Shown here piece by piece: positions 26,749-60,008 of a stretch of 64,000 nt of DNA. Both the position numbers and the translations under genes were made by a program. The notes beneath the pieces were generated by a model that made no database searches, was not told where the DNA came from, and saw only the letters and a list, made by a program, of their open reading frames with translations. Numbering within the stretch: the first letter of the stretch is position 1; each line of letters begins with the position of its first letter. Source of the DNA: Phoronis australis (lineage: Eukaryota; Animalia; Phoronida); NCBI GenBank assembly GCA_002633005.1, contig NMRA01000951.1, forward strand, positions 25,947 through 89,946, in the 5' to 3' direction.

Positions 26749-28824
26749 TCAGCTCACTTCAGTATTTTTGATGAGTTCAGTTTTAGTCTTACTATCAGTC
26801 CATCTGATATCACATTGAAAGTGTTCAGCGAACGCATCCACAAATGGTTGTATTGCATCCTCAACAGTCACTATGACGCCGGCTTCTTGGCTTAATGATG
26901 TCACACCTTTATCAGGTATACCGCAAGGTGTGATGTGCTGGTACCATGTGAGATCTGTGTTACAGTTGAGGGCTACTCCATGACTTGTGATGAAGCGCCG
27001 GGCGTGCACACCTGTAGTTCAAACAAGATATAAATCCGGTACAGGGACACGCTAGTGTCAGTACGCTAAATATAAAACTGGTACTGGGACAAGCTAGTGT
27101 CAGTAACCTAACTATAAATAAACTGCTACTGGGACAAGCCAGTGCCAGTAATCTAAGTATAAAACTGGTACTGAGACGAGCTAGTGTCAGCAGCCTAAAT
27201 ATAAATAAACTGGCACTGGTAAAAGCTAGTGTCAGTAACCAAAGTATTGCATAAAAAATTCTAAAATGAGTGTTAAGAAATGGACTCACTGCATGCATGT
27301 TGGAGTATGAAACTTTTTCAAATGATCTAGAGTCGGAGGAGTAATCTGAAAAAAATGAATGTACTTCATATTACCTATAGCTGCCAGTTTACGATCGTCG
27401 ACCCAGACTCCTGTGTCTTCCGTGGTCGTAGCCTCAACACCAAAGTGTACACACGCACTGATTAAGGTCTTCTCCAGGCTGGATATATACCATTTCATAC
27501 CTGTATAGACAAGTTATACCTATACAGACAAAGCCAGTTTATTTCTAAATGAATGAGTTTTACACAAAGCTTTAGACTTATTTTGTACTGTCCAAGTTGA
27601 AGATAAACCACTCATTTAAACATCACAATTAAATGCCTTCTAACAGCTGGTTCAGAATGATTTTGCCACAGATAAAGGGACATTTAAACTTTACAAATTT
27701 TGATTAATAAGTTTTTACAAAATTTGCAATTTTTATCAGAAGTTTATAGTATCAAAAATATGTGACCTACAGCAAGTGCGGTTATTTTACTTTATATTAA
27801 GCACTAAGAGAAGTTGCAGTAGTAAAGAAACAGTTTGAAACTACTACTGTGACATGATGCCTAAAACAACAGCTTTTACCAGTATTATTAACTTTCTGCT
27901 ATAACACTGAAGGTAAATCCAATTTTTAAATTTAGCATGAAAACATCCAAACAAAGAGCAACTACAATACTTTTTCTTAACACCAAAATGTGTACGAGTG
28001 CCTACAAGTGTCACTTCACAGTTTCTTGACAACATCCAACTCGGATCAACTCGGCCTATTTTCTTAGGCTTCTCAAATTGTTACTCAGCAGTGTTTCACA
28101 CCTGCGCATGTGCCATCTTCAATCCTTACAGCAAGTCATGTGACTTTCAAAATGGAGAATGCTGTTGAATGTGCCAGGATATCCCCATGAGAACAAGCTT
28201 AAAGAAGAATTAACAGAACATCCAAAGGTAGAATTGAGAATGACCGCCGCGAATGACTTTTACGATCTGCTGGGTTAAAGCAATGATTTCAGAGGTATCT
28301 TGACCACATTACGTAATGATTGAACTTACATGTGTGCAGATGTGAAACACAGCATTATGAGGTGTTCCAGATGTGACAAAGCAGTCCATTATCTCTAAGG
28401 TCTACCCAGGACAATGTTTCTACTTTTCAACGACTTCAGTGTTAGGAGTTTTATTTGGCCACAAACGATATATTATCTCTAATAAGCAACCTTTGACAAA
28501 GTGCGCCAGGTTAAGTACAGGATATGCCACCAGCTGGCCGGGTCCATGAAACGTGATCAAGCCCCCTCTTTGGGTGCTGTAGAACTCTGCCCCTAGTCCC
28601 TTCAGTCTCCTCTCCTCCTCGCCACTGTACTGCCCCCGTCTCTTCCCCACTGTGTACACAGCAGGGTGCTCCACCAACACCAGTATGTTGCCAGGGCGAT
28701 GAGTGACATGATCAGACAGCCAGTCCAAGTGCTGGCGTGCTAACCTCTCTTGGATGTGCAGTGATGGTAGATATCCCAGTCGGCCAAGGTGTACAACCGA
28801 CACCAAAGGTTTGGTCGAGACCAT
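26749..28824 (-). CDS. LIPT2: Octanoyltransferase / lipoyltransferase 2, mitochondrial (LipB family), 3 coding exons, ~240 aa
   Basis: Exons 28824-28491, 27500-27375, 27011-26749. Motifs EHPAVYTVG, RGGLITFHGPGQLVAYP, GVWV..RKLAAIGV, TSHGVALN, ITPCGIPDKGVTSL. An acceptor just upstream (exon starts 28832) implies a 5' UTR exon further upstream. Confidence 0.96.
27025..27245. repeat. ~45-bp minisatellite next to the LIPT2 last-exon acceptor
   Basis: About 5 copies of ataaactggtactgggacaagctagtgtcagta. Confidence 0.8.
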
Positions 28825-30739
28825 TGGTAAATCTGAAATAATGAGCAAAACACTGATACAATTTTTGACTACTTCAAACATTCTTTCCTATACCTAACAC
28901 AATCATAAGTATACAGTGTAACACTCGATCCTACACTTGAAAATGAATTCATAACTGTGCCTTTTCATCTCAAGCCACAGCAACAAATTCTTCAGCCAGT
29001 GGAGGTTTAGAGTAAAACCTGTGTGAAAATTAAAGACTTCACCAGTGACCTGTACATGAAGCTTATTTGTATACAAGCTGTTTTGGGGTTAAGATTTCTT
29101 GAGCAGTTTATATGACAAAACTCATTAAACCTTTCTAGATGAAATCAAAAGACTCGCACCATTCAACCAAAGACAGATGATAAAATATCATTCTTGATAG
29201 CTTCAATTTAGTCAGAAAATTTGCTATTCGACTGAAAAGTTCAGCTTGATCATCTGAGCTACAAGTACATGTAGTGCATCACAGCATATCAGAAAGTTGC
29301 CGGTTTGTCGCGTAAAATCACGACGTCGATAACGCCGTCCATCCGTAATTCATCGGTAATTTCCTTACCGTCCTTGACCTCTAACCAACACAGTTAGAAG
29401 TGTGTTTGGGCTTTTTGGGAACATTTTTGTGCTTTGACAGCGAATTTCTTGCGAACTCGCTGGAGCAGACACCGTGAATGGTATTATAAGAAAGAACAAT
29501 TTCTCATGGCTTGTTGAACCCCTGTTTTGTGTAAATTTATTTAGTTATGTGTTTGCTATGGACGGCTGAAGTGAAGCACCCGTGGAATTTCTAGTCCCGA
29601 GTGTCATACCTTGTAGTATTATATGTAGTGTATTGGGGACGATCAGCTGAGGGCGTCTGTGGCTGGCACAGGCTACCGGAGTACTGCTGTATTGGGCAAG
29701 TGCAGAAAAACGATCTGATTATACGAATAATGCAAAACATGTACATATATTAAACCTAAGCATAATGTGGCAAAAATTCAGTGAGCACCTCACTGTCTAA
29801 TACTACAGGATGAAAAAAAACAGCACAGAAGCCAGACAAAACTCGTACCCTGCAGCTCACATCTCCATATTGAAATTTTAGCATAGCGCCATCTGGAGAT
29901 CCACTGCTTCACAGCACGCGGGATAAGCAGAGCGGTATGCTCGTAGGCTACCGCAAAACTACTAGAATACAACATTCGTACGTAGGTTTACGTCACAGCT
30001 AGACTATACGGCGTTCAGTTTGACGGTCCCGTTTCAGCTGCGCCAGGTGCAACCAAAGAAACCTAGTGATGGACGAAAACTAGCCAGTTCACCTCAAGCT
30101 CAGATCAGCTCTAGGCCCACTACCCGTGAGAGCGCGGAACATTTCGGAGATCAGTAGCCAATATAACCATGACCACACCAGTGTCTACATCAACACACAT
30201 GCACTGCTCAGTGTGTGTGAACTTGGAATCTTGCTAAATCTCAAGATCGCGACTGCGTGCACTGAATTGTTCCCGTGCACCCAAATACGTCATTCGCTTA
30301 GGGCAACGTTTCACTTTTTTTTTGTCAGATGTTTTTCAAACGTCGAGTTAAGTTGCAAAATTTGGGTTGCAAACAAAAAGTGGAGAGAATTTGCACTCCG
30401 AGTTAGTTTGGATCTTTAACGACTTTGATGACAGCCAGTAGCAGGTCAGACCTAGGAAAATCATGAATACTTTTTCAACGGGCATTTTCTCAATTTTCAC
30501 ATCACAAACGTAGCTACTCGAATGCACGTGTCAGTTAGGGAGCACTGATTCAACTTTCACGTCGGCAACTTGCCTTGCGCTTTAGGGCCTTTCAAAGGCG
30601 GTCCTGAAGAATAGTAATATCGGACCTGCATGAACGAACTCACTTTTGCGATCTGAAATTTGTCAGTATTTAACACTGCAGGTAAGAGCATAATCTAAAC
30701 ATTTTCTCGGTGATCTCAAAAATCAATTTTGGAGCGTAG

Positions 30740-33972: not shown

Positions 33973-34836
33973 CAGGTTAGAAAAGTCAGAGGTACACACA
34001 TGTAAGGAACACCGCAGACGGTGAGTAATTACGAGCTCACTTGACTTGTGCCTCAAATGAAATAAAACTTAGCTGAGCTCGACACAGGCGTAAAGACCTA
34101 AAAACTGCAGGCTAGTTCATTTGATTGTTCTTAAACCTTTTCGTAATTTGTCGAAACGTCGTTACTATAATTGTTAATCACTTGACCTAGAATCAGTCGA
34201 GATGTGTCGCATGTGACCATCTAAATCAACACGGTCAAAAATGCTCCTCTTAAGATTTAACAGAATACGCAATACGTTGAATGATTAAATAACACCAGAA
34301 AAAGATTTGAATTGTCACTATTTTCTGTTTTCACTGTCTAAACATTTCCGCCAACGAGTAAATATGTTAGGGTCCCTTTGACGCCGCGGGTCCCTACTGG
34401 GCCTCAGAAATGGTAAATCCAAGCACATACAACTTTTCATAAGTCCATTTTGGCTAGAGTAAAAAAATACTTACGTCTATAATAATTAATTATAAAATAT
34501 CCGTGCCACAAATTATGATCCACGACAACCTTATCAACCTGACAGTTGTTTTTTCAACACCCTCATCTCGCCAGTGATCATGCAGTGATAGATTAAGTAA
34601 GAGGTAGACAGTTTTATCCAAAAGCTTGTTTTCGTGCTTACTAATAACCTTGCCTTCATACTTTGAGACGCTTAAATTATAGCGAGTGTTAATTTTGTTC
34701 TTATTGAGAATATTTCGATACATTATATTGTAATGTAACAGCTGCTTCGGGAACACCGGCTTTATTTCTTGGTCATTCGATACAAAATATCAACTAGTAC
34801 GTTATTGCTGCTTGCAGATATTAGATGGACGCTGAT

Positions 34837-34890
34837 TAGATGAACGTTCATTAGATGAACGTTCATTAGATGAACGTTCATTAGATTAAC
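34837..34890. repeat. 15-bp tandem repeat, ~3.5 copies
   Basis: (ttagatgaacgttca)n. Confidence 0.85.
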
Positions 34891-35064
34891 GCCATGATCT
34901 TAATTCATCAGAATTGTTTCAAAACACTGTACAACTTGTACGTTTTTCATCTGCCAAGTCACTGTCGTTGTACAACAAACAGCTTCTCATACTACTGATA
35001 TTAAATGTTGACGACATCCTATTGATAAAAGCACTTTTCTTACTATATGCACAATTACCCTTTT

Positions 35065-38000
35065 TTAGTTTCTGTGAAATGTCTGCATCGATAACCTTCC
35101 TAACATTTTCTGCCAATCTAGTTTGTATTTTTCACTCAGTACAGTATCCCCTTTTTGTTTGTATGCGTCGCTTAATTGAAGTAGCATCGTCGCATTTTCA
35201 TCGTTGTCAGTGATGCAACCCATTCTTGTTTTCATTTCGAAAGCTTCTGTGTAATGCCGAAGCGCCACATCTAAGTTATTTTCATTGAGGTAAAGTGCAC
35301 CAATTGTCCTTAAGGTGTCAGCAGTGTACGGATGATCACGTCCTTTGTCTAATCTTCTCCGCATGCTCAACGCTTCCTCACAGTGGGTGAGTGCCATGTT
35401 GCCATTACCTTTCTCTTGGTAACACAAACCCAGGTTGGTCAAAGATAGTGCAGTACACTCGTGGACACCAGAATTTAATCTCTTATTCATTTCAAGTGAA
35501 TCCTCAGCCATGTGTAACCCCAGATCAAAATCCTTCCCACGTTTACAATGTAAAAGTCCAAGATTTCCCAACGTTTCTGCTTTACTTGGATGGTCCTTCT
35601 CACCAACTATCCTCTCGATCATGCTCAAAGACTTGGAGCAGTAACTAAACGCCTCATCTATTTCTCCGATCTTGAGATAAACTTCTCCAATGTTGTTCAT
35701 TGCGTTCGCAACACCTAGATCGTCTTTGTCGCGAAAGAACACTTTCATCAATTTCAGGTATTCAGAATTGTGCATCAAAGCCTTTTGATACAACCCCATG
35801 TTTTTACACAACCAACCCAGATCACAGTAAGCACTGGCAACAAAAGGATGAGAACTGTAAACGTCTTTTATGATTTTCAAGGAATCTGTCTTAAATTGTA
35901 GTGCCAAATCTAGCTTACCCATTTCGTTATAAACATCTCCAATGTCACTCATGATTGTTCCCAGGGCAGGGTGGTCAGCATCTCCACAGACCTTTTTCCA
36001 CACACTCAAGGAATCCTGATAGTACCGTAGTGCTAACTCAGTCTTTCCCAATTTACTGTACACCTTACCTATATCGTGCAACGTGGATGCTATCTGTGGA
36101 TGCTTTCTATTCTCGTAGAAACGCTCCCATGTGCTTAGCGCCTCTTGGTGGTGTAGCAACGCTACCTCGTACTTACCGAGTTTACTGTATAAAATTGCAA
36201 TGTTATTCAAACTTGCAGCTATATCAGGGTGACTTCTGTGACCATGAATCTTCTTCTTCATAGAGACGGATTCTTGATAGTATTCTAGCGCAAGCTCGTG
36301 CCTAGTCATGTTGTCATATACATTCCCAATGTTATTCAAGCACGATGCAATGTCAGGATGGTTGATATTTCGATGGATTTTCTTCATCATATTCAGCGAT
36401 TCTTGATAGTATTGCAAAGCTAACTCATTTTCTTTCAAATCATCATAGACACTTCCTATGTTACTCAGACACAATGCAATGTCATGGTGGTCTTGATAAC
36501 CATGTATTTTCCTCCACAATCCTAGCGCGTCCTGAAAATATCGTAGCGCCTTTCCTGGCCTTTCAGCTTGGACGTACAAGCTACCAATATTATGCAAACC
36601 CGACGCAACATCTTGGTGATCTACATTTCCGTAAATTGCTTTAGTCATAGAAAGCGAACCTTCAAGATGTTTCAAAGCCAAGTCGTACTCTTCCATATCA
36701 CCATAAACATTTCCAATATTATTCAAGCTTGACGAAATATCAAGATGATTTGCATCACCATACAGTCTTTTCTGCATAGCCAAAGAGGTTTGATAATACT
36801 GTAAGGCGGACTTCAGCTCTCCCATTTCATAATAAACATTCCCGATATTCGTCATACAAGACGCAATTTCATAATGATCCACGTCTCCATGAATTCTTTT
36901 TCTCATACCCAATAACCTCAGATGGTATTTTAAGGCTACGTCAATCTTGCCCACTTTGTTGCACAAAAAGCCAATATTGTTCAAGCTTGAAGCCATCTTT
37001 GGATGATCTTTATCAAAATAGATTCGCTCTCTCATACAGAAGGCCTGTTCATAGAATTCAAATGCCAGCTGGTATTTACATGTAACATTGTACACACTTC
37101 CGAGATTGTTCAGGCACGAGGCTATTTCAGGATGATCTTCTTTACCATGAACTCTTTGCCTTAGTTCCAACGCCTCTCGGTAGTATCGCAATGCTTCGAC
37201 ATAGTTACCCATATTGTGACAAGCAACCCCCTTACTGTTCAAGCATGTGGCGATGCCAGGATGATCCTCGTCACCAAAGATCCTCTTGTGCATGTCCAAA
37301 GATGACTGATAGTAACTCAGAGCTATCTTTTGTTGGGTCAAACTATCGTACACATTTCCGACATTAATAAGGCACAGCACAATATCGGGATGATCACTGT
37401 TACAATAGATTCTCTTCCTCATATTCAAACAGTCAAGATAGTACTGCAGTGCTAATTGGTGTTTACTCATTCCAAGATAAGCACTTCCGCAATAATTCAA
37501 GCATGCTGCGATGTCCCGATGGTCCTTGTCTCCATGTAATTTCTTCACCATACGCAATGAGTCTTCATGGTACTTTAGGGCGGAGACGTAATTACCCAAC
37601 TCCTGATATGCCGAGCCGATCAGATTAAGGATATAAGCTACATCACTATGCTCGTCACCACGCTCATTTTTCACCACATCAAGTGATTCTTTAAAGTAAA
37701 TAAGCCCGAGCTTGGGTTTTCCTAAACGTGTGTTTGCTTTTCCAATATCTGCTTTACGTTTCGCGACAGACATTAGATTTTCAGATTCAAACTCCGCCTT
37801 CGTTACGTCAGCGACATCTGCAATTCCAATGGAGAGCGACTTGCTAATCTGTTCACTAATCAAACTATCGATGATTTCAGAAGACACGTCATCACCAGTG
37901 TTGCATCGCCATTTTCCTATACTTAAGGAGTGTGTGAAGTACTTCAGCGCCTCCGTGTATTGCTCCTCCAACATATATGTCTTCCCTATCAAAGTCAAGC

Positions 38001-41000
38001 AACGAGCAACCTCTGAGTTGGTGTGGTCGCATAAAATTGTTCTGCCTTTATAAGGAATTAGAATGTCCTCCGGATGCTTCGTAGCCGGGCTGGGTTTACT
38101 CCGCCAAGTTGTTTCTATATGAGCGAACAACTTGTCTCGAGCATTTTGAAGTTGGAAGCAACAGAAATCGATGCAACCTTCATAGAAATCGTTAGTGTCA
38201 AAAAATATCGAGTCTATTCTTTTAACAACCAAAACATCCACTGGACTTAATTCACGTAAAAAATCAACAAATGGGTAAATTGAGTAATAATATCGTACAA
38301 TTACATGCTTATAGCCTCTGTACCGTGAAACTTTGTCCGAGGAACCGGTTTCTTCTGTTGTAATTCCTGTCGGTAATAAGCTCAGCAGTTCGTTTTGCTG
38401 TGACTTACTGCAATACATGACTAGTCTCAAAAGTGTGACAATTGAAATCATAACTTGTAAATTGCACGCGCCTTCCTCCGTTAAGATACCCCTGGAATTC
38501 ATTTCACCAAGGATGTCCCAAGTGTTGTTACTGTCCAAACCGTAAAGTGTTTTGAATAGGCTAATCACGACACTTGGTAATCTGAACATTTCCCTCTTAA
38601 TATCGTGCACTTTTCCTGTGCCCGTATGGAAACTAAGTTCCGGAAAAATGTCATTCAAAAGTTCGTGAATTTCAGTTAGTGTTTTCATCTTTATTTTTTC
38701 TTCAGCTTTGTGCTCTGCTCTAAGCAGTGTGAACTCTTTGAAAAGGTCGTCAGCATTTGCGCTACACCATAGTTTCACTGTTGTGGTCAGGACACGGTCA
38801 AATATATATCTATCGTTCTTGGCGGTCTCATATTGGCAAATCTTGGCCAGGTTTTGAGGAGTCCTTATTAGCTCTATCCCCGGTCTTCCTGGCTTGTCCG
38901 GTCGTCCTAATGGTGTCTTGCAAGCGAACGGGAGAGCACTGTCGAACTCAAACCCGCGAGCTACTACGTCATCTACGAACCAATTTCCACCTTCAGTGTC
39001 GCAATCATTGAGAGATTTAATGCTCATGGTCCGCAGATAGGTTTCACCAATATTTAGGACAAACAAATGCACAAGCCTAACTAGGTTCCTGAAATACTCA
39101 AGATCTGCGGTGTCATCTTCCACAAGGATTGCCCATTCCAAGTCTGAATACGGTGTTGCTTCTCCCCTAGATAAAGACCCCATAGCTATGGCTACGTATT
39201 CTTGTGGAGGTGGTCCAAGGATTTCCTGTCCCTTCGTAATGAGGTATTGATCCAGTGATATCATCCCAGTGCAAACGTCTTTAAAAATACTTCGCGTTTC
39301 TTCAACGAAAACCTTTTCCAGTTCTTTCCGCTCATATTCCGGAGCCTTTAAATTAAGATCGCGGCCAAAATTCTGCAATAGTTCAACCGCACGCAGCGAA
39401 ATTCTGCTTCTGATGTTTTCTAATTTTTCTTTAACTTCCACCTTATAATGTATCGGTAGTTTGTTTACAGGCAACGACAGTACTTCACAGAATGCAATTT
39501 CATTTTCTTTTAATAGTGCTTCCAGCTTTTCTCTGTAAGAGCTACTCTTTGTCCTCAGTAACGCTGCATTGTAGAGTGCTGACGCAGTAACAAAGTGCTG
39601 AGTGTAGTTTGTTAACAAACCTCGTCTTTTGTAAACATCACCCATTTGTTGGAATATTTCACTGGCTGACATTGATCCACCATCCTTGTTGATGAGAGCT
39701 TTAAGTGATGATGCAAGGCTGGCTTCTGTCGATTCCAGTTGTAATAATTCTGTAAATGTTAAGCGAACAATGTACTTTACAAAATAACCATTCTTTGTAA
39801 GCAGTAGTGGGGTAACAATGGAGTTTCGTTACAGTCCGTGGGGCATGTCAAGCTTGGAGCAAAATATTCATTTCTTCATTATTCGAAATATTTATAATTA
39901 GCTTAACTTGAGGAGTTCTCAAGATACCTGTCCTTCTCCGACTATAGAAAGATTCCAAAGTTTGACATGCATGACTAACTTGTATTTGGTGCAAGCTCAT
40001 GACTATGGTTGGGTACAGACGGCCAAGAGTCATGACTATGGTTGGGTACAGACGGCCAAGAGTCATGACTATGGTTGGGTACAGACGGCCAAGAGTCATG
40101 ACTATGGTTGGGTACAGACGGCCAAGAAAAGTTTTGACTGATCTCAACAGACTGTTTTGTATTTTAAAAATTGCTGCCTTGAGGTGTTCAGATTTTTAAG
40201 GGAACTCGTAGGTCTGTTGAATGTAGAAAATCTCAGTAGTAAACCGGAACCACTGCATAAGTAGATAAATGAATCGATTTGCGTTTCAATTCTAAAACTG
40301 GTGTACCGATTTCACCCGAAATGAAACTAGCAACACTAAAGAAGTACACTATACAAAAAAATAACTCCCCCATCAATCGGCGCGGGGCCGTGGATATAAC
40401 CTCAGTTCGCGGTCGGGGTCACCAACGACCTGATAGAAACCCGGCAGGTAATGTGCGCGTGATTTTTAATATTCTCACTACTTCCTTTCCAAACTCCTTC
40501 AAGATCTCCTTTGTTAGTAAACATCTTTAAAGGTATCATAGAAATTTGCAACGCCCTTTTTAAACACACAGATATATTTTCCTCCATAGAAACTGAGAAA
40601 TATATCAATCTAAGCTAATCAAAACGGCTTGTCGCGAATATTCTCCGCGTCAACTTTTTCTCCAAGCTACATAGCCTTTAAAAAGACCGCATTAAACATT
40701 TTAAATTGTCCGACTGGATGTTACGTTTGCCGTTCAAAAAGGTGACTTCTTCAAGACCAGCTACCCCACGAAATGGTGCCTTTTTTCTAAGGTTCTCTAC
40801 AAGAGGGTGTCTTTTACGATTTAGTTCCCAATAAAGAGTTTACTTTGGGAGTTAGAAACTCCAATAAAGGTTCTTTAATGTTTTTATAACTTTGATTAAA
40901 AAGACGTCTCTTCATTCACTGTTTCAGACTCAAAAAGAATAAAAAATTCAGCTGTCCCAGAATCCATACGAAAGGGTGACCTTTTTCACGGGAGCGCCCA

Positions 41001-41440
41001 AGAAATGGGTCCACTCTCTAAATGTGCGAGTTGCTCGTCCATCAAAATGTAGTCGAGTGCCTTCTTATAAATAATTCACATCGGAATGCGACACATAACA
41101 ATCTATGCATGGTAATAGCGGATGAAGTCTAGAGGCCGACATTTTTCGCATTACGGCAAAATGATGAATATGGTATTACAACCAGGGGCAAGTGGCTTAA
41201 AAGTTTCGCGCTGAGTAACAACAACGACACCACATTATCGCTCGTCACGTACGTTGCCATCCTTGAACAATGCCTATTGTAGACAATGTCAAAATCAACC
41301 TCATCCAATGCAATGCACAGAAAAGCTGTAACAACTGAAGATGCGATATATTTTGAATAGTTGGTGTTAACAAGGGTTCTCTTACCTATTGACATATCTC
41401 CGGTTGTGGCAACACGTTTTCTGTCTGTATCGTCACTCAT
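35065..41440 (-). CDS. GlnD/GlnE/DUF294-like nucleotidyltransferase plus helical substrate-binding domain plus ~20 x 43-aa TPR repeats, ~1579 aa
   Basis: Stop-free 1535-aa ORF (39672-35065) that extends in frame to an acceptor at 39749. It joins in phase 1 to a small ATG exon 41440-41386 (donor G|GTAAGA). NTase motif GSLSRGEATPYSDLE at 39180-39136; DIKREMFRLP...LLRL helical domain; HPxIAxxLNNIGxVY...ALxYYxxSLxMxKxI(H/Y)G repeats. The large exon is secure; the 5' exon is inferred. Confidence 0.9.
39997..40127. repeat. 33-bp near-perfect tandem repeat, 4 copies
   Basis: (tcatgactatggttgggtacagacggccaagag) x4; reads (TLGRLYPTIVM)n on the minus strand. Confidence 0.95.
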
Positions 41441-43833
41441 TGTTCTGGTCGATGAACGACACCTGAAAAGTTGCTACCAGTTGTTAGTATCGCTTGGCAT
41501 TCATAAGTATGAGGACTTCGTTCTAGTAAAACAAAAACAGAAAGGTTGCAATAGTCCTTGCCTGAACGCAAAGCGAAGACTCGGACAAACAACTTGAAGT
41601 CGTGCATTGTATAAGACTGAAGCCCACAGACGTAATAGGACCGTTTTCACGTAGGAGGGGTGTGAAATATGTGATGAGTAGTTAGCATTTAGCTTTGCCC
41701 TGGGGTCAATGACGATTTTTGTTCTTCCCCAGCCTTAAATGCTTTTTAGTCTCAGAGAGAAGCAACTGTATTAGACCACTTTCATGGGGATAAGTGGCCC
41801 AAATCAAAAGTTTTTTTTGATAAAAGGTGGTCTTACAACAGATTTAAAAGGACACTGCACCTTTTGTTTTGGCAACTCCTTCACCCAAATTAAGCCTAAC
41901 TGGTTCTGATCACATGTAATTATAAAGTTGCTGCATCGTTTAAAGCATAAATTATACAGTTTTGTGTACTTTAAAGCATAATTTACAGTTATTTCACCTA
42001 AAACAATTCCTCACTGTGTCACAACTAATGTGTGACCCTGTGGCAAGAATACCATCTTTGCTCATAAAACTTCTTCCAAACTACGGTTGGCGAGATTCAC
42101 AGAGTTGTTTCAAAGATTTATGGGGTCTAGGCAGCCACTTAAGTTAAGCTAAAACAGGGTTCACATTGTACTTTTGAAAAATGCATCTTCCATTTAAATT
42201 ATCCGATGTATGACACCGAGGAACATTGACTTCGTGAGGTCACTAAATTGAACACAAATTAAATAGAAGAAAGGCGTTGAGTGTAAATGAGTGACTTTTA
42301 AACAAGTTTCAAACGTTGTTCATAACTAAGTCAAGATACCGAAACCGAAAGCAAAATTCGTCGTAAACCGACCCTTTTCCAAGGGTTGATAACCTTATCG
42401 GTGTAGTGAAGGTGATATAGCTTACGAACCGTGTCTGCGCGTGCTAAGTAACTGAGTACTTGGTTTTGCGCCCTTCACAAATTTGGTCGAAATTCGACAA
42501 GTTCTGCTCCCAAGTCACGTTATGCAGCCCCGAGTGCTGACTTGATCGACGTCATTCCGTGGTGAAAGTCAAAGCTATAGGTTCTTTTGTCCCCGTCTCG
42601 GCGATGTTGTTCACAAATTACATGTCATGATACCCACTTAGCACTATGAAAACATAGCCATGCATTAACACAAGTTAAAGAATAAAAACATGTCTTTGAA
42701 TACAGTATATACATGCACTCTTTCAATCCTGTTCAGCTGCAGGTAAACTTATGGCGTTCCGGAAACGGCAATGTTAACCTGCTTGAGCCTTCAGAGGGGT
42801 ATTTACTCAATATCACCATTCTCCCGAAAGATGGCACTCTGAAAGAGTGTCGATTTTTGTATTTTTATTCGAAACTGTCGGTGGTTTTGCTGTTCGTCAG
42901 TTTATTAACGCAGGAAGAGGGCGGGATTATCTGTATCTCCAAAGGTACACCTGATAAAAGCATAGAAACCTAGGCATTTATACCGTTCTATGACAAAGGT
43001 AATCATCGAGACCTGGCCGGCCTACTATACCTTGCTAAGTGACGTTTTAATTTGCAGTGGGTGATAATTTAAAATCTGCATTGGAAAAAATACCGGACAA
43101 AGATCATTTTAAGAAGAAATGTTAACCATATCCGCGAGTGCAACTGGAAGGAATCCTACGAATTACATCAAAGAAAAAAGGCCTACCGGCACAAATTGGC
43201 GCAACTTGAGGATGGCGACACGTTGTGCAGCACGGACAATTTGGGGTCTTCTGAAACTATATGGTTTGAAAGTAAAATCGGCAGTTAGGAATTGATTCCT
43301 TTGGTTTTGACAAAAAATGTAGGATTCTAGACATATGTCCAAATTTGGCCAACGTCGGAACGTCATATTTTAGGCCGGAAATGACTGTTCGGCGAGATTC
43401 ACTTGAAAACAGAGGCGATAGTTCATAACATCAAACGATTGTACAAAAAGCTGGAATTATTCTTGGAATGTCCCACTGTGTATGAGAGTTCATCAAACTG
43501 GAATTGAGGATTTTTATAAAACGGAAACGAAATGATATTTTAGAAAACTGTAACAACATTTTTTTCATCGAAATATAGTCATGTTGATATCGTGGTTTTG
43601 TTATAGACGTACCTTTCTTGCTAAATTTCACTGAAAGACATGGTCAATTTATGTCAGATTGCTAAAAAGTCAAAAATAGAATTCCAACTGAAATTTATGC
43701 ATTTACTGAGTAATCTATAGTTTTGTAGATATTTTTCTAACAGTTTGTCGGTAAGGTCCTATCTAACCTCAAGATTTTGAGAGAACTTTTAAAAATACAG
43801 AGTTAGATAACATGAAACTCTATACTCTCCAGA

Positions 43834-44258
43834 CATACATGCCCCGGCCGGCTGCGCAATGATAGAAATTGAACGGGTTGCCGCGGCGGCCTGAGGACTG
43901 GCTAGATCAAGCCCGTTCAAATAAGTTAACATTCATGGTATGTTTTCAGTGTCTCCTATCTCGAAAGCCACGTGTCTTACGGTGTCCATGGTTTTTGAGC
44001 CGGACGATCTTCATGCGTGCACCCACCCTAAAAACTAAAAAAACAGGGGTGCTCGAATGTGGACCTTTTACTAAGATTCACGGGGTACGATGATAAGAGC
44101 TGTGAATTGTGCATTCGCCAAATTTTGATAATTCCTTCCTTTTTAGTGGACTTTTGTCTCGTTTTCTATTTTTTTTTCGGAATTTCCGTTTCTCTTTTTG
44201 CCAACTTCGCCAAATAGGGGAGCTCGTTCGAGCCCCCCACCCCCTGGGTGCGCGTATG
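43834..44258. mobile_element. MITE with CATAC...GTATG termini
   Basis: The right end ctgggtgcgcgtatg matches the termini of the 46365-46501 element; the left end catacatgccc is degenerate. Confidence 0.4.
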
Positions 44259-45885
44259 ATCTTCAACGCCAACATCATCGCTTATCGATAATTCACATTA
44301 GCAAGACGTATTTGGGACCAAGATAGTGTTTAACACGAAAAAATGTTATAAGAAAAGACTTAATTCTTAAACATTGGGTTCAATAGTAGGTAATAGTTGG
44401 AAGCAAAAACATTTTGGAAAAACAAGATAAAATGATAGGTCCTGGTGTCATACTAGTGTCATCACGGGATAGCCGAGTTGACAGTAGAGTATAATGCTGC
44501 TATTTCTGTTCTAAAAAGCCTATTTCAAGCAAATTTACGTCGTAACATTTGTAAATTTGAAACTATCAGAGACAAAAGAAAACGTTTCGGTGTTTATAAG
44601 GGTTGGCCACCGCTAAAATTGGCTATTCGAGAACGGCACATGAATACCGGCTAGAGTTGACAGCGGAAATGGAATCCTATCGATCCGATTTTATGAGAGT
44701 AAAAAAACCCAATTCACTTTTTAACCAGCTAAATAAGGCAAAATACAGCTTTACGTCTTAACGGACATTTCACCGCACGCTGTTTAGGCGTTATGTTTGA
44801 ATTCTCAACCGAAGCGCGTTGAGGTTTTAAAACATTACCACACTCCCCAGATTCTGAAATGTTGCCGAATGAGCCGGTAATTCGAGTCAGACGGACAATA
44901 AGTATATGCGCCAATTTCGAATTCGTAATTTTATAGTTGGCCGACGCCAACTTTTTAAGCATTTTGCTGAGTCGCTGACGGTTTTGACGTTCTTATTGGT
45001 ATCGGAAATCAAGACTCAATAAGTGTAAGGAATATCACGAGACTGGATTTTATGAGCTTAAGTGGCTTAATTCATTTTCCTTCTTTATGGCAACTAAATA
45101 CCGAGGAAATGCAGCTTTAACAATATTAATGAATGTATTTTCAGAAAGTGTAAACCCGTCATGAGTTACTCAAGGAGACAGGTTTAACTCCATTTGAAAA
45201 AATATTCATTGCTTTATTTACCGTAATCGATTTTGCCCAGGGTACGCCACGAGCTATGTTGCAGAGTAAAACAAGATGAGGATTGCGAATAATGTCATTT
45301 ATCATGACGTAAATAGAAAGAACTGAACAAGACAACGCAAGATGGGCATGGAAAAACGCCACCAGCGTGTACAATGAATAGCTCTGAAAGATGGAACCAA
45401 AACAAAAGAATTGCCCGGCTGAAGGGCCTAAAGAAAAAGCACAGAACATAAACGCAAAACTTAAAAATACCTAACTAAACAAGACTGCAATATGGGCATG
45501 GAAAAAAGCCATAATGGCAGTATGGGAATACTGACACATAAAAACTTAAGAAAGTAACAACCTTTCTGGGAAACGATAGAATTGCATTCGATGAGTCAAG
45601 AGTGGTCTTGTGCTCCTATTACGAGCGCATCTGAGTACGTGTGTTCTCATTGTTTTGTGCGCTGCGAATAAAAAATCTTAATCAATTTTATAGAACTGAA
45701 CATTATAGATTCTTTTGTTAACTTGTTAACGGTTACTGCTGCGCACAGTAGAAATCGGTTCCATAATATTCAGAGAGACAGCTGGCAAGCTGTGTGCTAC
45801 TAAATCTAAACTTAGGACAAATGAAGCTGCGTGGAGTGTAAGAATAGATTTCATAGCTGCTCGACGAGCAGGCAGCAAACATCTG

Positions 45886-46098
45886 AGCTGGGTTGCATAA
45901 AACTTCAAAATTATCCACTGGATAAGTTTGATTGTTATATGACCGCCAGCATGGGCGGCGCAGCACTGAAAAAAGTGGGGGCTACAGCACCTTATGGTGC
46001 GCCGCCCATGTGACGTCAGGTGCGTTGTTCAACAATAACAACGTGACGCATGATAATGGGACGTCATTGTTGCTACCTAACTTTTATGCAACTGGGCC
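45886..46098. mobile_element. Harbinger-like MITE (CTG TSD) containing a nested 61-bp mini-element (45950-46010)
   Basis: Outer TIRs ..gttgcataaaa / ttttatgcaac.. with ctg on both flanks. Inner perfect 13-bp TIR catgggcggcgca / tgcgccgcccatg with a degenerate ~9-bp TSD. Related sequence at 33383-33500. Confidence 0.7.
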
Positions 46099-46290
46099 CT
46101 GATCAATTATCGCGAGCTTGTAAACGCACTGCTACGTTGTTTGTGGTATAAGCTGGAAAACAGAAAACCATCATGTTTGTAATGACAGGATTGAGGACGA
46201 AATTCATTTCATGCTCAACTTTTCTTTTTACGAAAATTAAAACATACTAATTTTAGTTTTTAAAAAGTTATGGAAATTCTGAGACGGAAG

Positions 46291-46566
46291 AAGTGGCGGA
46301 TTTAGGGGGGGNAAATTCTCCCAGATACCATTATTGGCAGTTCGGGGTGTGAATTGCTCACTAGCATATGCGTGCACCCAGGGGGCTCGGGGGGCGAATG
46401 CACAATGCATAGGCCTTGAACAAACTCTACCTTATTAAGGTCCCCAAACACAAAAATTTGAGACCCTTGCATCCCTACATTTTAGGCTGGGCGCGCGTAT
46501 GTGGCGAAATTCTGGTTATTCCTGTGCCCTGCCCCCCCCAACTCAAAAATCCTAGATCCGCCCCTG
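46291..46566. mobile_element. MITE with a nested MITE (46365-46501)
   Basis: Outer TIRs agtggcggatttagg / cctagatccgcccctg; inner catatgcgtgcacccag / ctgggcgcgcgtatg. Confidence 0.6.
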
Positions 46567-47948
46567 GGGAGATATAGGGATCATACCCAGGTAACTTTTC
46601 CTTTGTATGTAGCTTAATGAGTTACTTGTAAAAGTGCTCTTTACCGATAATGTACAGGGATTGTATTTATTATTTTCATTTAGTTTCTTTGAAGTTTACC
46701 CACCAATACAGATAAAAGAGTAGAGTCAATCCCTCCTGAATACGTGTTTGTATTATTACTATAATTCTTTTGATACCATAACGTCCAAATTGCAAAATTT
46801 TTTGGTCAGATTCTTTTATAGTAGAGATAATATAATCAGACAAGACAGGCAGACCATTTAAAAATTAATAAAGTTTATGTAAAGTTGATTTACAAACAAG
46901 AGGATATACAAAACAAATATGACGAAATACAAGGTCAAAACATCAGAGACAGTTAATGAACGATTAATGAAATATTAAAATACACTTCTGGGATACACCA
47001 GCAAAGCAATGGATACAGACAGTTGCACACAATGTGCTCCATCACCAAATGATGTTAAAAAGTGGAACAAAACACTTAACATGCAAATCCAATTTTGCAC
47101 ATTTATTTTAAATTTCATACACCTCAACTAAGAATGGAGTCGACACTGTGTTCATGGTATGGAAGTGAGTATGAACAGCTACTGCATGGTATTCACTGTT
47201 TGTTTGGTAAAACTAGTCGCATTTCTCAGTACATGGAACTGACCCACCTTTTGAAAATTTGTGGTGTACACAAACATTTGTTCTATTTAAATTAACTACT
47301 ATACGTGGTTCGTCATTCATGTTCCAAGCCCTTTAACCCAAGGGGCAATGATAATTTTTAGGGTAGTGGTGTCACTGGGCTTCCAAATCTGGGCTAGTGA
47401 AAAAGATACTAGTATTCATACCATGCACACCAAAATTTATCTTCCAAGCACTAAAAGTAACCTCCAATCCCATTTTTCTAGATGCTCAGAGTCTCTGGTC
47501 CCAAGTTTGGCAAATGTGGCGGCTAAAATGCAAAGAAAATCAACTTGATCCAGGTACAAAAATCCTCATAGCAACGAGTCCTTACATTTTCTAACAATAA
47601 TCGTGGATCAGACTTTTTGGGTGCATATGCTGATTGATTTTTTTTGTGATTATTGTTAGAGAATTCAATAAAATTAAGCTTTCAAGATTTTTGTACCTAT
47701 ATCACAGGTCATCATTGGGTTTAATTTGATTTTTAACAACTTTAGTCCCCAAACTTGGGGCACCGTAACTTGTAAGTGAATTAGAAAATTAAAACTGGCA
47801 CCTGATCTCAGCGGCACTTCCCCACTCTGCCCATTATATTGACTTCCCCCAAGATTATTAAGAAGACCACCAACTCAGCTTGACACACTGTGACGCCACA
47901 GCCATGAAACCAAGAATTCCATCAACAGTCATTAAGTAGATAAACAAG

Positions 47949-50900
47949 TTAATCTTTGGTGAACTTAGGAAATCCTTTCTTCATATACCACTGGTGTGTG
48001 ATTGGTTGAAAATTGAACACATCTGGGTGACCAAGATGAGGAAGATGAGCAAAGTCCGATGTGCTCCACTGGAAAGGAGGCTGCTGATCAGTGGTGGGAC
48101 CGGCTACGGCACGGAACTGTAGACTTTTGAATAATAATGAACTGGTGAGCTGGAACAAGGGAAATGCGCCAAGATGAAGGCAAGGTAAAATGTCCATCCA
48201 AACACAAACTCATGTCCTTGCTCGATTGTATGGATGGCCAAATGTGCAAAAAACATCAGGATAAAATAAACAAAACAGCATTCAATTCACAATATGGAAT
48301 CAACGAGTTTGGATTGAATTGATGATGTCATATCATTGAATGCCCAAGATAGAATTGAATGGTCGTATGATTGGCATTGACTTTATTAAATACAATTGAA
48401 TATACAATTGATTTTTTTTGCACAAAAGGCAGCCTTTACGATTGCTTCATCTTTTCTTACAGTATATTAAACTCGATACAAAGATGTGCATTGGTCATTG
48501 AGTGTATAATAAATATCACTGCATCAACCATAGCACAAAGAACCTAAAGAACAGGCATTTAATGTTAAGTTTTGAAGGGTGATACCATTTTGTGACCAAA
48601 GCAACCATACCAAATGATCAACTGTTTATTTGTAACACAAGCTGCCATTGTCTGGTAATACCTTTACTCATTGTCAAGTCATGTTTACTGTATTAATAAT
48701 GACATGGGAGACAATCACTAATCCATCATCACTCATCACTTCATGCACTATGCATGTATCTGTGGCACTAAAACTTAAACTTAATTTCTATTATTCTCAC
48801 TTTTGATAATGACGATGTGGTTATATATACACACCCAATCAACAATAAATGGTGTTCACAGACACCTTGTAAGGTGTTTGAAAGTTGTTTTAATCCATGC
48901 AAAGCCATCTACACCATTTCGTAAATAACTTTTGGTATGCTCAGCCGAAAAATGGTATACAACTTTGTACATCCAGAGAAACACCTGTCTACACTGTCTG
49001 ATTAGTCATAAATGTCAGTCATCCATGGAGTTATACGGAATAATTATTGATGGAGTCATAATAAAAACCAGAGTGTGTAGGCTTAACTAGACTCTACCTT
49101 CATATCTGTCCCACCATGTTCTCGATGACCCAAGGCGTGGATTGGATACGTGCCAGTGGCTGGATTGAGATCACAGCGTGCCGAGATACCATTCTCAGCG
49201 CTGAATGGAGGTGTACAGTTACATCGTGCTAATGGATCATTCTTGAAATCATTGTACCTGAGAGGTTCAAAAAACTTTGGATTAAAACAAATACTGGGAA
49301 ATGTTTCATTACAACAGAGGGCAGTAGCAGCACTTTCATTAATATGAACACATGAAGCAGGCCATGAGCAGTTCTAGAAAATTATTTTAGGTGGTGAAAA
49401 GTTTATCTGGGTTTAACAAGACATTTCATCACTGGAAAAAAGACGATTTTGGCAAAAAGTGACATGACAAAGTCAATGTCTAACACTGCAAGCTGATTTG
49501 ACCTCTTGAGGACTATCCGTATATTAAGGCATACTAGGAGGGGAGATGTGGTGTGGAGATGAAAACAGGGAAGCAGGGTGTTCAAGGTCTGGTGATGTCA
49601 TTAATTGTTATAAATAGCGGACAGATGAAGTTGAAGAACACAAATTGTATGAGGACAATAGAATATGTATGTTTAGAGAACATGGCCCAGTCTCCAATCT
49701 CCGTACTCAGACTCGATTCATACTCAAACTCAAACTTCATACTCAACTCGAGTACAGACTCAGCTTTGGTGTATTCAATGTCATACTCGAAAAATCTGTT
49801 CTCAAAATTTCGAGCACATACTCAATTTTCGAGTATACTTGAACTGAAGTGTATCCCATCTATATTTCGAGTACGATTTTGAGTAAAATTCCAAGTATAT
49901 GCTCCAAATTTCAAGTTTGGTCTGGCAGTGTGCTTGAAATCATACTCGAAAATAAATACGAGCGAGAGAACAAAATATCGAAAGGCCACCGAGCAACACA
50001 GCAAATCTAAAAAGAGGTAATAGTTTTTGTTTTAAATCTTCTTATTCTTCACCTTATTAACCCACCATATCACTGCATGACTGCCAATTTATAAACTCCT
50101 TCTTACACTACGATTCCTGGCAACAGGCGCATTCTAATCCCTTGTCGGCGAGTCATTACAAGTGTCGAAAGCAGTTGAGGGGAAAGTCGTGTGAGAAGTT
50201 TGTGCTGCCCTTATTTCACTAGGTGTGCCTACGGTGTATAGGGTTTCCAAAAGAAGAAGAGGCGAGGAAAGTTAAAAACACTTTGCTTCCCTGTCAGGTA
50301 CATTTCACATCATAGTTTAGTCATCTATACTTCCTCAATCCCCGAATGGTGTTTGCCGATTTCTAAGTAGACGTCTCGTCCCGTTCACTGGTGAACTCTG
50401 AATGCCTGCACAGGTATTGTGTTTTAACTCACACGCCAAATATCAACTAACTTGAAACATGCCGATAAAATACAAATATACAGTATCAAAGTTTTGACAT
50501 CGGTGTAGGCCTACACAGCAATGGTTCTATGTCAAGACTAAATTAGCAAGAGAGAACAGAGGTTCTTTCTAAGACATTCTCGGGAGATGAGGAATTCAAG
50601 AAGTAAAGCTTAACAATTGTCAAATGTATCAAAGAAATGGTATAAGAATATTGTATTGAAACTGAAAAAATGAATAATAGTAACAGAACACTCAGAATTC
50701 CACGTTATACTCTTGTAGTTGTAGCGACAGCAGACGATAACGTAGTTGCTGGGTTGGTCTATGCCAATAGGGAGCGATGAATGATCAGCACGACTTTGCG
50801 TGGTTTTGCATTTCACATCACAAAGAGTTCCATAGCAACTTGAGTATGAGTGTCAGATTTGAGCACGTTTGGAGTCTACTCAAAATGCGACATTAGATAC

Positions 50901-58695: not shown

Positions 58696-58756
<61 letters not shown>

Positions 58757-59812: not shown

Positions 59813-60008
59813 TTTTAAAATCACATGACCAGTCACATGATTAGAAGTATTTTATTGATTTTGAACATGAAAATACTTTATAGTTTTAATAGCAATACAC
59901 ATTAAGAATGAAAATTCTAGATGAATATGGCTGAAAAACTCAAGTTAAGAAAAATAAAATTAATGTAAAAACAATTAGAAGTCAGAAAACGATCAGAGAT
60001 TATTCAAG
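59813..60008. promoter_or_regulatory. Bidirectional promoter between PLBD2 and ALG9 with tandem TCACATGA (M-box/CLEAR-like) sites
   Basis: Divergent ATGs are separated by 196 bp; tcacatgaccagtcacatga at 59821-59840. Confidence 0.65.

What the first reader, a model, noticed from the sequence alone, without database searches (positions are those of the whole stretch)
35065..39749. Animal GlnD/GlnE-type nucleotidyltransferase fused to a ~20-unit TPR solenoid: candidate sensor-effector system
Seen (ORF numbering): an intact Pol-beta-superfamily motif G165-S-L-S-R-G-E-A-T-P-Y-S-D177-L-E179, a possible third acidic residue at D244 (GFEFD), a helical segment at aa ~355-420 (DIKREMFRLP..YGL..NTWDIL.EM...GIL...A.NL....I...LRL), then about 20 tandem 43-aa TPRs. 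Established: GS/GG-x-x-R-x-E-x4-SD-x-D/E followed by that helical domain is the layout of bacterial protein nucleotidyltransferases (GlnD uridylyltransferase, GlnE adenylyltransferase, DUF294/DUF294_C). Animals lack PII/GlnD signalling, so the substrate must be something else. Enzyme-plus-superstructure-repeat fusions are the typical design of innate immune receptors and effectors. Inference: the TPR array binds a ligand or protein target and gates AMPylation/UMPylation or nucleotide second-messenger synthesis, functionally parallel to but distinct from cGAS/OAS. From memory, similar domain annotations exist in amphioxus and in intracellular bacteria, but I know of no functional study.
Basis: partly seen in the sequence, partly recalled or inferred. 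Interest (0 to 1): 0.88.

Follow-up and report, generated by a model that had tools for sequence, protein, structure and literature searches.

The report
Animal DrrA-like AMP-transferase with TPR array
This transcribed gene, lying among ordinary intron-containing genes, encodes an intact enzyme domain shaped most like the Legionella enzyme DrrA joined to about 20 protein-binding repeats, and it likely attaches AMP to other proteins, an enzyme class not described in animals in the papers searched.

Summary
Observation confirmed. The minus-strand ORF 35065-39672 (1535 aa) has G165-S166...D177-x-E179, D244, a HEPN-like helical domain and 19 regular plus 2 degenerate 43-aa TPRs. It is transcribed on the right strand at low depth and lies between intron-containing housekeeping genes. 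The interpretation needs one correction: the closest characterised enzyme is the Legionella Rab1 AMPylase DrrA/SidM (Z 24.0 over 326 residues; family profile E 4e-9), ahead of GlnE (Z 18.7); GlnD matches only weakly. Catalytic residues are intact in 146 of 151 relatives. The family is large: 1642 clusters, expanded in amphioxus, present in Owenia and multi-copy in intracellular bacteria (Neochlamydia NEX2, Holosporaceae, Midichloriaceae). Best reading (0.55): a protein AMPylase whose TPR solenoid selects or gates the target. DrrA's Rab-binding site and fourth acid are not kept, so the substrate is open. An immune role is plausible but indirect; second-messenger synthesis has no support. The family is database-annotated (DUF294), I found no paper on its animal members, and this scan has reported it before on other DNA (an annelid and a sea squirt). 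Verdict: new variant of a known kind, interest 0.62.

The parts
35065..39749 (-). Main coding exon: uninterrupted frame from the candidate splice acceptor (AG at 39751-39750) to the stop codon; contains the ATG at 39672 used for residue numbering
   Evidence: stranded RNA reads across it
41386..41462 (-). Predicted upstream exon with ATG at 41440 and a phase-1 donor that fits the phase of the 39749 acceptor; would give a 1579-aa protein (inferred, no junction read seen)
   Evidence: only strong-consensus donor on the minus strand in 39750-46890; stranded reads in bin 41115-41615 and none in 40113-41114
39451..39738 (-). N-terminal TPR-like helical hairpins, shared with amphioxus and chlamydial relatives
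   Evidence: model residues 1-96 match TPR/MIT structures at Z about 9; conserved columns
38704..39450 (-). Pol-beta-superfamily nucleotidyltransferase core with its leading helices (aa ~75-323)
39136..39180 (-). Catalytic motif G165-S166-x10-D177-x-E179
   Evidence: same spacing as DrrA G98...D110-x-D112 (PMC7815794; alignment)
38941..38943 (-). D244, predicted third metal-binding acid
   Evidence: D in 168 of 169 relatives; only invariant column of the 110-row alignment
38233..38703 (-). HEPN-like helical substrate-binding domain (aa ~324-480) with K359, R364, R416, Y420; no RNase R-x4-H motif
   Evidence: model 346-502 aligns to DrrA 210-343 at Z 12.4 and to a HEPN toxin at Z 8.9
35221..37650 (-). 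19 regular 43-aa TPR units (aa 675-1484); two degenerate units precede them from aa 552 (window 38019)
   Evidence: mean pairwise identity 32%, maximum 66%
34761..34766 (-). Candidate polyadenylation signal about 300 bases after the stop
   Evidence: read depth falls in bin 34602-35102 and is 0-0.4 in the next bin

Best explanation
The gene encodes an intact DrrA-like nucleotidyltransferase fused to a TPR solenoid, which likely transfers AMP from ATP onto a hydroxyl side chain of a protein target that the TPR array is predicted to select or to gate access to. Shown: fold, intact active-site residues, transcription, family and its distribution. Inferred: D177/E179/D244 bind Mg-ATP, with K252, K359 and R364 lining the site as K241/R246 do in DrrA; the substrate is a protein, because the only two structures that match both domains (DrrA, GlnE) modify proteins; the nucleotide is ATP. 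More weakly inferred: the family was exchanged between animals and intracellular bacteria that use it as host-directed effectors, and in animals serves host-microbe conflict or defence, with paralogs varying TPR number and surface to reach different targets. The target is probably not Rab1 engaged in the DrrA manner.
For: Model pLDDT 91.1, pTM 0.92. Among 48,161 PDB representatives the top matches are DrrA 6yx5_B (Z 24.0, rmsd 4.0, 326 aligned), GlnE 1v4a (Z 18.7, 3.7, 320) and 3k7d (Z 18.0, 3.5, 301); the best chain of any other protein is Z 9.7. Foldseek agrees with both models. A 32-row family profile hits DrrA at E 4.1e-9 in both domains and no GlnE chain at E<=1. G165/S166/D177/E179/D244 intact in 146 of 151 relatives; K359 in 162 and R364 in 157 of 169. 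114 of 120 listed relatives carry 3 or more C-terminal TPRs, range 0-20. Bacterial relatives lie in intracellular lineages at 6-18 matches per genome in 5 of 5 genomes searched; Neochlamydia members were proposed as host-directed effectors (PMC4209131). Stranded RNA reads cover the ORF in 3 of 3 raw-read runs.
Against: No activity data. Identity to DrrA is only 14% and a shared fold does not fix the substrate: the same two-domain layout also serves kanamycin nucleotidyltransferase and a possible adenylyl cyclase (PMC3710099). The position of DrrA D249, a metal ligand according to PMC8097203, is S367 here and D in only 25 of 169 relatives; DrrA's allosteric Rab-binding R70/Q71/K74 align with I138/S139/Q142. 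This copy is divergent: 34 of 40 conserved columns kept, with only 8 of 152 rows lower, and a long branch. Immune-type fusions are rare (CARD in 2, IRF in 1, Roc-COR in 1 of 120 listed) and may be gene-model fusions. The repeats are old and diverged (maximum 69% nucleotide identity), not a recently shuffled array. Expression is about ten times below the neighbouring gene.
Confidence: 0.55

Rival explanations
1. It makes a small nucleotide product (cyclic or linear second messenger) or nucleotidylates a small molecule, with the TPR array as ligand sensor, parallel to cGAS/OAS.
For: DUF294-type and aminoglycoside nucleotidyltransferases share the two-domain layout (PMC3710099); kanamycin nucleotidyltransferase matches at Z 8.2; nearest Atlas clusters are DUF294/DUF294_C proteins; sensor-plus-enzyme architecture.
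Against: Both full-length structural matches are protein-modifying enzymes, at Z 18-24 against 8; no cGAS, OAS or adenylyl cyclase among the 50 best rows (inconclusive by itself).
Confidence: 0.15
2. It runs the reverse reaction, removing AMP that bacterial effectors put on host proteins (as the N-terminal domain of GlnE removes AMP from glutamine synthetase).
For: The GlnE N-terminal domain 1v4a matches as well as the adenylylating domain (Z 18.7 against 18.0, tied); that domain deAMPylates (PMC12409994).
Against: DrrA, a forward enzyme, is clearly closer (Z 24.0; only sequence-level match over both domains); the multi-copy relatives in intracellular bacteria look like effectors.
Confidence: 0.1
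3. This copy is a weak or inactive relic and works, if at all, as a TPR scaffold.
For: Long branch, 6 of 40 conserved columns changed, including G to S next to D244; low expression; single copy in the window.
Against: All predicted catalytic residues are kept while overall identity to any relative is 36% or less, and a 4.7-kb frame is free of stops; decay would not spare these columns.
Confidence: 0.1
4. It adds nucleotides to RNA (for example tRNA ends) or uses UTP/CTP/GTP rather than ATP on proteins.
For: Pol-beta superfamily membership; weak GlnD profile hits (E 0.002-0.05); HEPN-derived domain.
Against: No RNA nucleotidyltransferase among the 50 best structural rows; GlnD scores are 12-16 bits against cut-offs above 500; HEPN RNase motif in 1 of 169 relatives.
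Confidence: 0.08
5. The ORF is DNA of an intracellular bacterium assembled into the host scaffold.
For: Nearly intronless long ORF; relatives in endosymbionts; a tree with the query on the bacterial side is not rejected (p-AU 0.37).
Against: No assembly gap between it and spliced phospholipase B and lipoyltransferase genes except single N bases; no gene-dense bacterial flank; GC 41% in a 36-43% region; stranded RNA with a splice-like boundary; groups with animal proteins in the best tree, and a clade with Neochlamydia is rejected (p-AU 0.025).
Confidence: 0.02

Closest known systems
DrrA/SidM N-terminal AMPylase domain (Legionella pneumophila effector; PDB 6yx5, 3nku, 3l0i; Pfam SidM_N PF20879)
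   Same: Whole two-domain module superposes (Z 24.0, 326 residues); G-S-L-x9-D-x-D/E motif with identical spacing; K241 and R246 equivalents; only solved protein that the family profile matches in both domains.
   Different: 14% identity; host-encoded; TPR arrays instead of GEF and PI4P-binding domains; D249 and the allosteric Rab site not kept; SidM_N score 16.6 below the cut-off of 27.
GlnE glutamine synthetase adenylyltransferase / adenylyl-removase domains (PDB 3k7d, 1v4a)
   Same: Same fold over about 300-320 residues (Z 18.0-18.7); three-acid active site.
   Different: No sequence-level match; single module rather than the duplicated AR-R-AT layout; TPR fusion.
GlnD PII uridylyltransferase / Pfam DUF294 + DUF294_C
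   Same: DUF294 passes its cut-off; databases label relatives 'Protein-PII uridylyltransferase N-terminal domain-containing'.
   Different: GlnD family models score far below cut-off and only over the first motif; no HD or ACT domains; DUF294_C not hit.
Neochlamydia NEX2 family (F-box, OTU, DUF294, TPR; Domman et al. 2014, PMC4209131)
   Same: Same module over 92% of the query at 28% identity, 11 places on one plasmid; same 42-43-aa TPR tail.
   Different: Bacterial putative effectors with F-box/OTU; function untested; a clade of the window protein with them is rejected.
Metazoan AMPylases FICD and SelO
   Same: Predicted reaction; FICD also pairs an AMPylase with TPRs (PMC12409994).
   Different: Unrelated folds; the 2021 review PMC8097203 lists only these two classes in metazoans.

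Membership tests
Pol-beta nucleotidyltransferase superfamily | G-[GS]-x9-13-D-x-[DE] motif plus a third acid | tested here: met
   G165 S166 D177 E179 D244; conserved in 146 of 151. Spatial position of D244 not read from coordinates.
Pol-beta nucleotidyltransferase superfamily | Fold | tested here: met
Pfam DUF294 (PF03445) | Score above gathering threshold 21 | tested here: met
   27.3 and 28.1 bits
Pfam DUF294_C (PF10335) | Score above gathering threshold | tested here: not met
   not listed at E<=0.1; two relatives with two modules each do pass (P0163, P0235); the fold does match
DrrA/SidM AMPylase | NTase plus HEPN-like domain with the DrrA fold | tested here: met
   Z 24.0, rmsd 4.0, 326 aligned; profile E 4.1e-9
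DrrA/SidM AMPylase | Pfam SidM_N above cut-off 27 | tested here: not met
   16.6 bits; three relatives with two modules each reach 35.8-52.3 summed
DrrA/SidM AMPylase | Fourth acid D249 and allosteric Rab site R70/Q71/K74 | tested here: not met
   S367; I138/S139/Q142, read from the profile alignment
DrrA/SidM AMPylase | GEF and PI4P-binding domains | tested here: not met
   rest of the protein is TPR
DrrA/SidM AMPylase | AMPylation of Rab1 Tyr77 | not testable with these tools
   needs an assay
GlnD (PII uridylyltransferase) | NCBIfam equivalog cut-offs; HD and ACT domains | tested here: not met
   12-16 bits against 519-1299; no HD/ACT
GlnE (GS adenylyltransferase) | Duplicated AR and AT modules, sequence match to GlnE | tested here: not met
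   one module; no GlnE model or chain hit
cGAS/OAS-type second-messenger synthases | Structural match to cGAS/OAS/CD-NTase | tested here: inconclusive
   not among the 50 listed rows; absence from a list does not exclude
Active HEPN RNases (MNT-HEPN) | R-x4-6-H motif in the HEPN domain | tested here: not met
   none in the window protein; 1 of 169 relatives
Neochlamydia NEX2 | DUF294 followed by C-terminal TPRs | tested here: met
Neochlamydia NEX2 | N-terminal F-box, chlamydial origin | tested here: not met
   no F-box; clade with Neochlamydia rejected at p-AU 0.025

The most novel reading that the evidence does not exclude
Marine invertebrates carry a third, DrrA-type class of protein AMPylases, shared with or captured from the effector arsenals of intracellular bacteria and expanded into large TPR-diversified repertoires that act as innate sensor-effectors: the TPR solenoid binds a microbial or host protein and the enzyme AMPylates it or a downstream switch.
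Probability: 0.3. Interest if true: 0.85.

Novelty: new variant of a known kind. Interest (0 to 1): 0.62.

Why it matters
A 2021 review lists only FICD and SelO as metazoan AMPylases and treats DrrA as a stand-alone bacterial class (PMC8097203). A host-encoded DrrA-like family with over a hundred amphioxus members and intact active sites would add a third class, give DrrA an evolutionary context, and suggest a function for the unstudied chlamydial NEX2 effectors. It is testable with one mutant pair and a standard labelling assay. Interest is tempered because the domain is already annotated as DUF294 in databases, the function is inferred from structure only, and this copy is one divergent member of a family that the scan has met before.

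Tried and rejected
No whole genome is held for the window, so paralogs in this species could not be counted; the window holds one copy. Single-sequence PDB searches gave nothing useful (one search returned only ankyrin proteins). Viral contigs: 0 relatives among 8 and 54 pattern matches; no viral structure at E<=0.001. PADLOC: only weak matches to the first motif. A second word-based protein search with the family alignment returned only 5 proteins. A search with a phospholipase B exon to place the organism's broad lineage found nothing, so 'animal' rests on spliced neighbours and on the tree, and the phylum is not known. No upstream exon was found by homology; it is predicted from splice signals alone. 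No junction read for the predicted intron is among the 15 of 48 joints shown, and a closer read lay was not obtained. No RNA holder was listed by the index; the runs used came by species label. No cGAS/OAS appeared among listed structural matches. Literature: nine searches found no paper on the animal family; passages of PMC8195603 and PMC3482391 (first 300,000 characters) did not mention it; the one supplement held for PMC3710099 (4,325 characters) had no hit, and supplements not held may list such proteins. Rejected: GlnD or GlnE orthology, active HEPN RNase, recent transfer from Neochlamydia, Rab1 as an established substrate.
Full report
Observation. The window holds one long frame, 35065-39672 on the minus strand, 1535 aa from the first ATG and open up to 39828. 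Pfam gives DUF294 at 27.3 bits (cut-off 21), a weak SidM_N match (15-16.6 bits, cut-off 27) and strong TPR_10/TPR_12 matches; DUF294_C is not hit. A profile built from six of its own repeats finds 21 units, 19 regular (aa 675-1484, spacing 43 except one 41) and 2 degenerate; mean pairwise identity is 32% and the maximum nucleotide identity 69%, so the array is old.

Gene and setting. Upstream lie four exons with Phospholipase B matches between 49.1 and 58.5 kb and downstream an exon with a lipoyl-ligase match at 28.4-28.9 kb (5 of the 9 frames scanned had these matches), all on the minus strand, so the host is a eukaryote with introns. The only long N run is at 20455-20966. Three raw RNA runs carrying the same species label, each read to 18-19%, cover the nine 500-base bins inside the ORF at mean depths of about 3.4, 2.4 and 0.6 on the strand expected for a minus-strand RNA and 0-0.15 on the other; run X3 has no reads in the last of these bins. 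The neighbour's 3' region reaches 24-50, and bins 40113-41114 are empty in all runs. Reads were accepted from 90% identity, so paralogs could contribute. Homology to relatives starts at about 39738, just after a candidate acceptor at 39750/39749. The only strong-consensus donor on the minus strand in 39750-46890 is at 41386; it is in phase 1, as the acceptor needs, and follows an ATG at 41440 in a 77-base exon, giving a 1579-aa protein. Reads lie in that bin (0.05-1.1), but no junction read was shown, so this model is inferred. By inspection the predicted N-terminus has no hydrophobic leader, so a cytosolic location is inferred.

Family. A word-based search with aa 1-520 gave 137 proteins at E<=1e-5; of the 120 listed, 119 are Branchiostoma at about 30% identity and one is unnamed. 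A full HMMER search of 1.84 billion representatives gave 1642 clusters at E<=1e-3, 1124 at 1e-10 and 214 at 1e-30. Of 30 representatives looked up, 5 are Owenia fusiformis, 2 Branchiostoma belcheri, 1 a Holosporaceae bacterium, 2 have a name without organism and 20 have none. In prokaryote genomes one exact peptide pattern gave 19 relatives among 32 matches, in 18 loci: 7 chlamydial, 1 Holosporaceae, 1 Midichloriaceae, 6 Gammaproteobacteria MAG loci, 3 unclassified; recall of that scan is limited. Five of these genomes, searched whole, each have 6-18 matches, which are not copy numbers. A Neochlamydia plasmid has 11 places; these proteins fit the NEX2 family (F-box, OTU, DUF294, TPR) proposed as host-directed effectors (PMC4209131, passages). 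No viral relative was found. Of the 120 listed relatives 114 have 3 or more C-terminal TPRs, range 0-20; among all 254 with a scored module, many of them fragments, 173 do. Ten amphioxus proteins picked for their extra domains or length show an N-terminal CARD in 2, IRF in 1 and Roc-COR with a conflict-type glycosyltransferase in 1; such fusions are rare among the 120 and may be gene-model artefacts.

Active site. In 125 modules from the first search G165, S166, D244 and K252 are invariant and D177 and E179 are kept in 124. In 151 more diverse relatives 146 keep all five catalytic positions; the window protein keeps 34 of 40 conserved columns, lower than all but 8 of 152 rows. With bacterial loci added (169 rows) D177 and E179 are each kept in 166 and exchanged for the other acid in 3, D244 in 168, K359 in 162, R364 in 157; an R-x4-H RNase motif occurs in 1.

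Structure. A first model (50 amphioxus-rich rows, pLDDT 80.5) left the D244 region unresolved; a second with 81 diverse rows reached pLDDT 91.1 and pTM 0.92. Against 48,161 PDB representatives it matches DrrA 6yx5_B at Z 24.0 (rmsd 4.0, 326 aligned, 14% identity), GlnE 1v4a at 18.7 and 3k7d at 18.0; the helical domain alone matches DrrA 210-343 at 12.4 and a HEPN toxin at 8.9; kanamycin nucleotidyltransferase scores 8.2. Foldseek ranks the same four chains at E<=0.001 for both models. Independently of the model, a 32-row domain profile hits DrrA at E 4.1e-9 in both domains and no GlnE chain at E<=1. DrrA's catalytic residues are D110, D112 and D150 in a G98-S99-L100 motif, and it has an allosteric Rab site including R70/Q71/K74 (PMC7815794, passages); a review adds D249 (PMC8097203, passages). 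From the profile alignment, D110/D112 match D177/E179 and K241/R246 match K359/R364, but D249 falls on S367 (D in 25 of 169) and the Rab site on I138/S139/Q142. The match of D244 to D150 is inferred from conservation, not read from coordinates. GlnD models score 12-16 bits against cut-offs above 500. The GlnD/GlnE/DUF294_C helical domain is an inactive HEPN, and DrrA is placed in that group (PMC3710099, passages), where it is listed as bacterial only.

Origin. A 39-row maximum-likelihood tree of organism-labelled rows (20 bacterial-locus rows, 13 Branchiostoma, 5 Owenia, the query; all unnamed representatives and most amphioxus paralogs left out) puts the 19 animal-labelled rows on one side of a branch (bootstrap 86, SH-aLRT 96, not starred) and the query with four Owenia proteins (87/89), on a long branch. 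A clade with Neochlamydia is rejected (p-AU 0.025), but a tree with the query on the bacterial side of the other animals is not (p-AU 0.37). There is no root, so direction and number of transfers are open; patchy occurrence in intracellular bacteria and marine invertebrates makes transfer the likely link (inference). In the larger FastTree of 152 rows unnamed sequences interleave with bacterial and animal ones.

Mechanism. The most likely reading (0.55) is a Mg-dependent transfer of AMP from ATP to a Tyr, Ser or Thr of a protein, with the TPR solenoid binding the target or gating the site. Shown: fold, residues, conservation, transcription. Inferred: protein substrate, ATP, role of the TPRs. 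A role in defence or host-microbe conflict is about even given that, resting on lineage-specific expansion, variable repeat number, effector-like bacterial relatives and rare CARD/IRF fusions. Rivals: small-nucleotide product 0.15, AMP removal 0.10, relic or scaffold 0.10, RNA or other-NTP transfer 0.08, contamination 0.02.

Novelty. The domain is database-annotated and the bacterial NEX2 members are described but untested. Nine full-text searches found no paper on the animal members; subscription papers and most supplements were not visible. Reviews name FICD and SelO as the metazoan AMPylases (PMC8097203; PMC12409994, passages). The scan's own index holds two earlier reports of the same family in an annelid and a sea squirt, seen after my structural result and not counted as evidence; a sequence look-up there found nothing. 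The protein works like DrrA by prediction but is not a member of DrrA, GlnD or GlnE. Verdict: real gene, new variant of a known kind, interest 0.62.

Noticed in passing
window 46900-59851 (-): Multi-exon phospholipase B-like gene; four exons with PF04916 matches, 3' region expressed at depth 24-50.
   Followed up: partly
window 26749-28887 (-): Lipoyl/octanoyltransferase-like gene; PF21948 match at 28420-28887, further likely exons at 27286-27513 and 26749-27018 judged by eye.
   Followed up: partly
window 39997-40127: Four perfect copies of a 33-base unit inside the predicted intron; a 15-base unit repeats 4.8 times at 34820-34891 in the predicted 3' UTR.
   Followed up: no
window 43119-46625: RNA reads on both strands with many loose ends and joints: dispersed multi-copy repeats.
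   Followed up: no
window 42117-43118: Low stranded RNA depth (0-1.2) on the same strand as the gene; may be 5' untranslated exons or read-through from the phospholipase B gene.
   Followed up: no
window 55406-55690 (-): 94-aa frame that looks, from recall, like the end of a GIY-YIG retroelement; no Pfam match.
   Followed up: no
window 5122-5672 and 20455-20966: 198-base tandem repeat (2.9 copies) over a 205-aa frame, and a 512-base assembly gap.
   Followed up: no
proteins P0002-P0121: Most amphioxus members have T at position 169 and L at 171 (120 and 122 of 125) where the window protein has R and E and 17 of 18 bacterial rows have R: a possible change of nucleotide or substrate preference in the amphioxus expansion.
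   Followed up: partly
P0148 (Owenia): An animal member with an OTU protease domain before two DUF294 modules, recalling the OTU-DUF294-TPR layout of Neochlamydia NEX2.
   Followed up: partly
G005:C17:14549-42146 and G001:C1: Tandem arrays of family members in a Midichloriaceae MAG (at least 7 matches on one contig) and 18 matches in a Gammaproteobacteria MAG.
   Followed up: no
P0233, P0242, P0231, P0219, P0254 and kin: A 12-member clade; the five members looked up are unnamed, four of them on ENA contigs of 330-700 kb; host unknown.
   Followed up: partly
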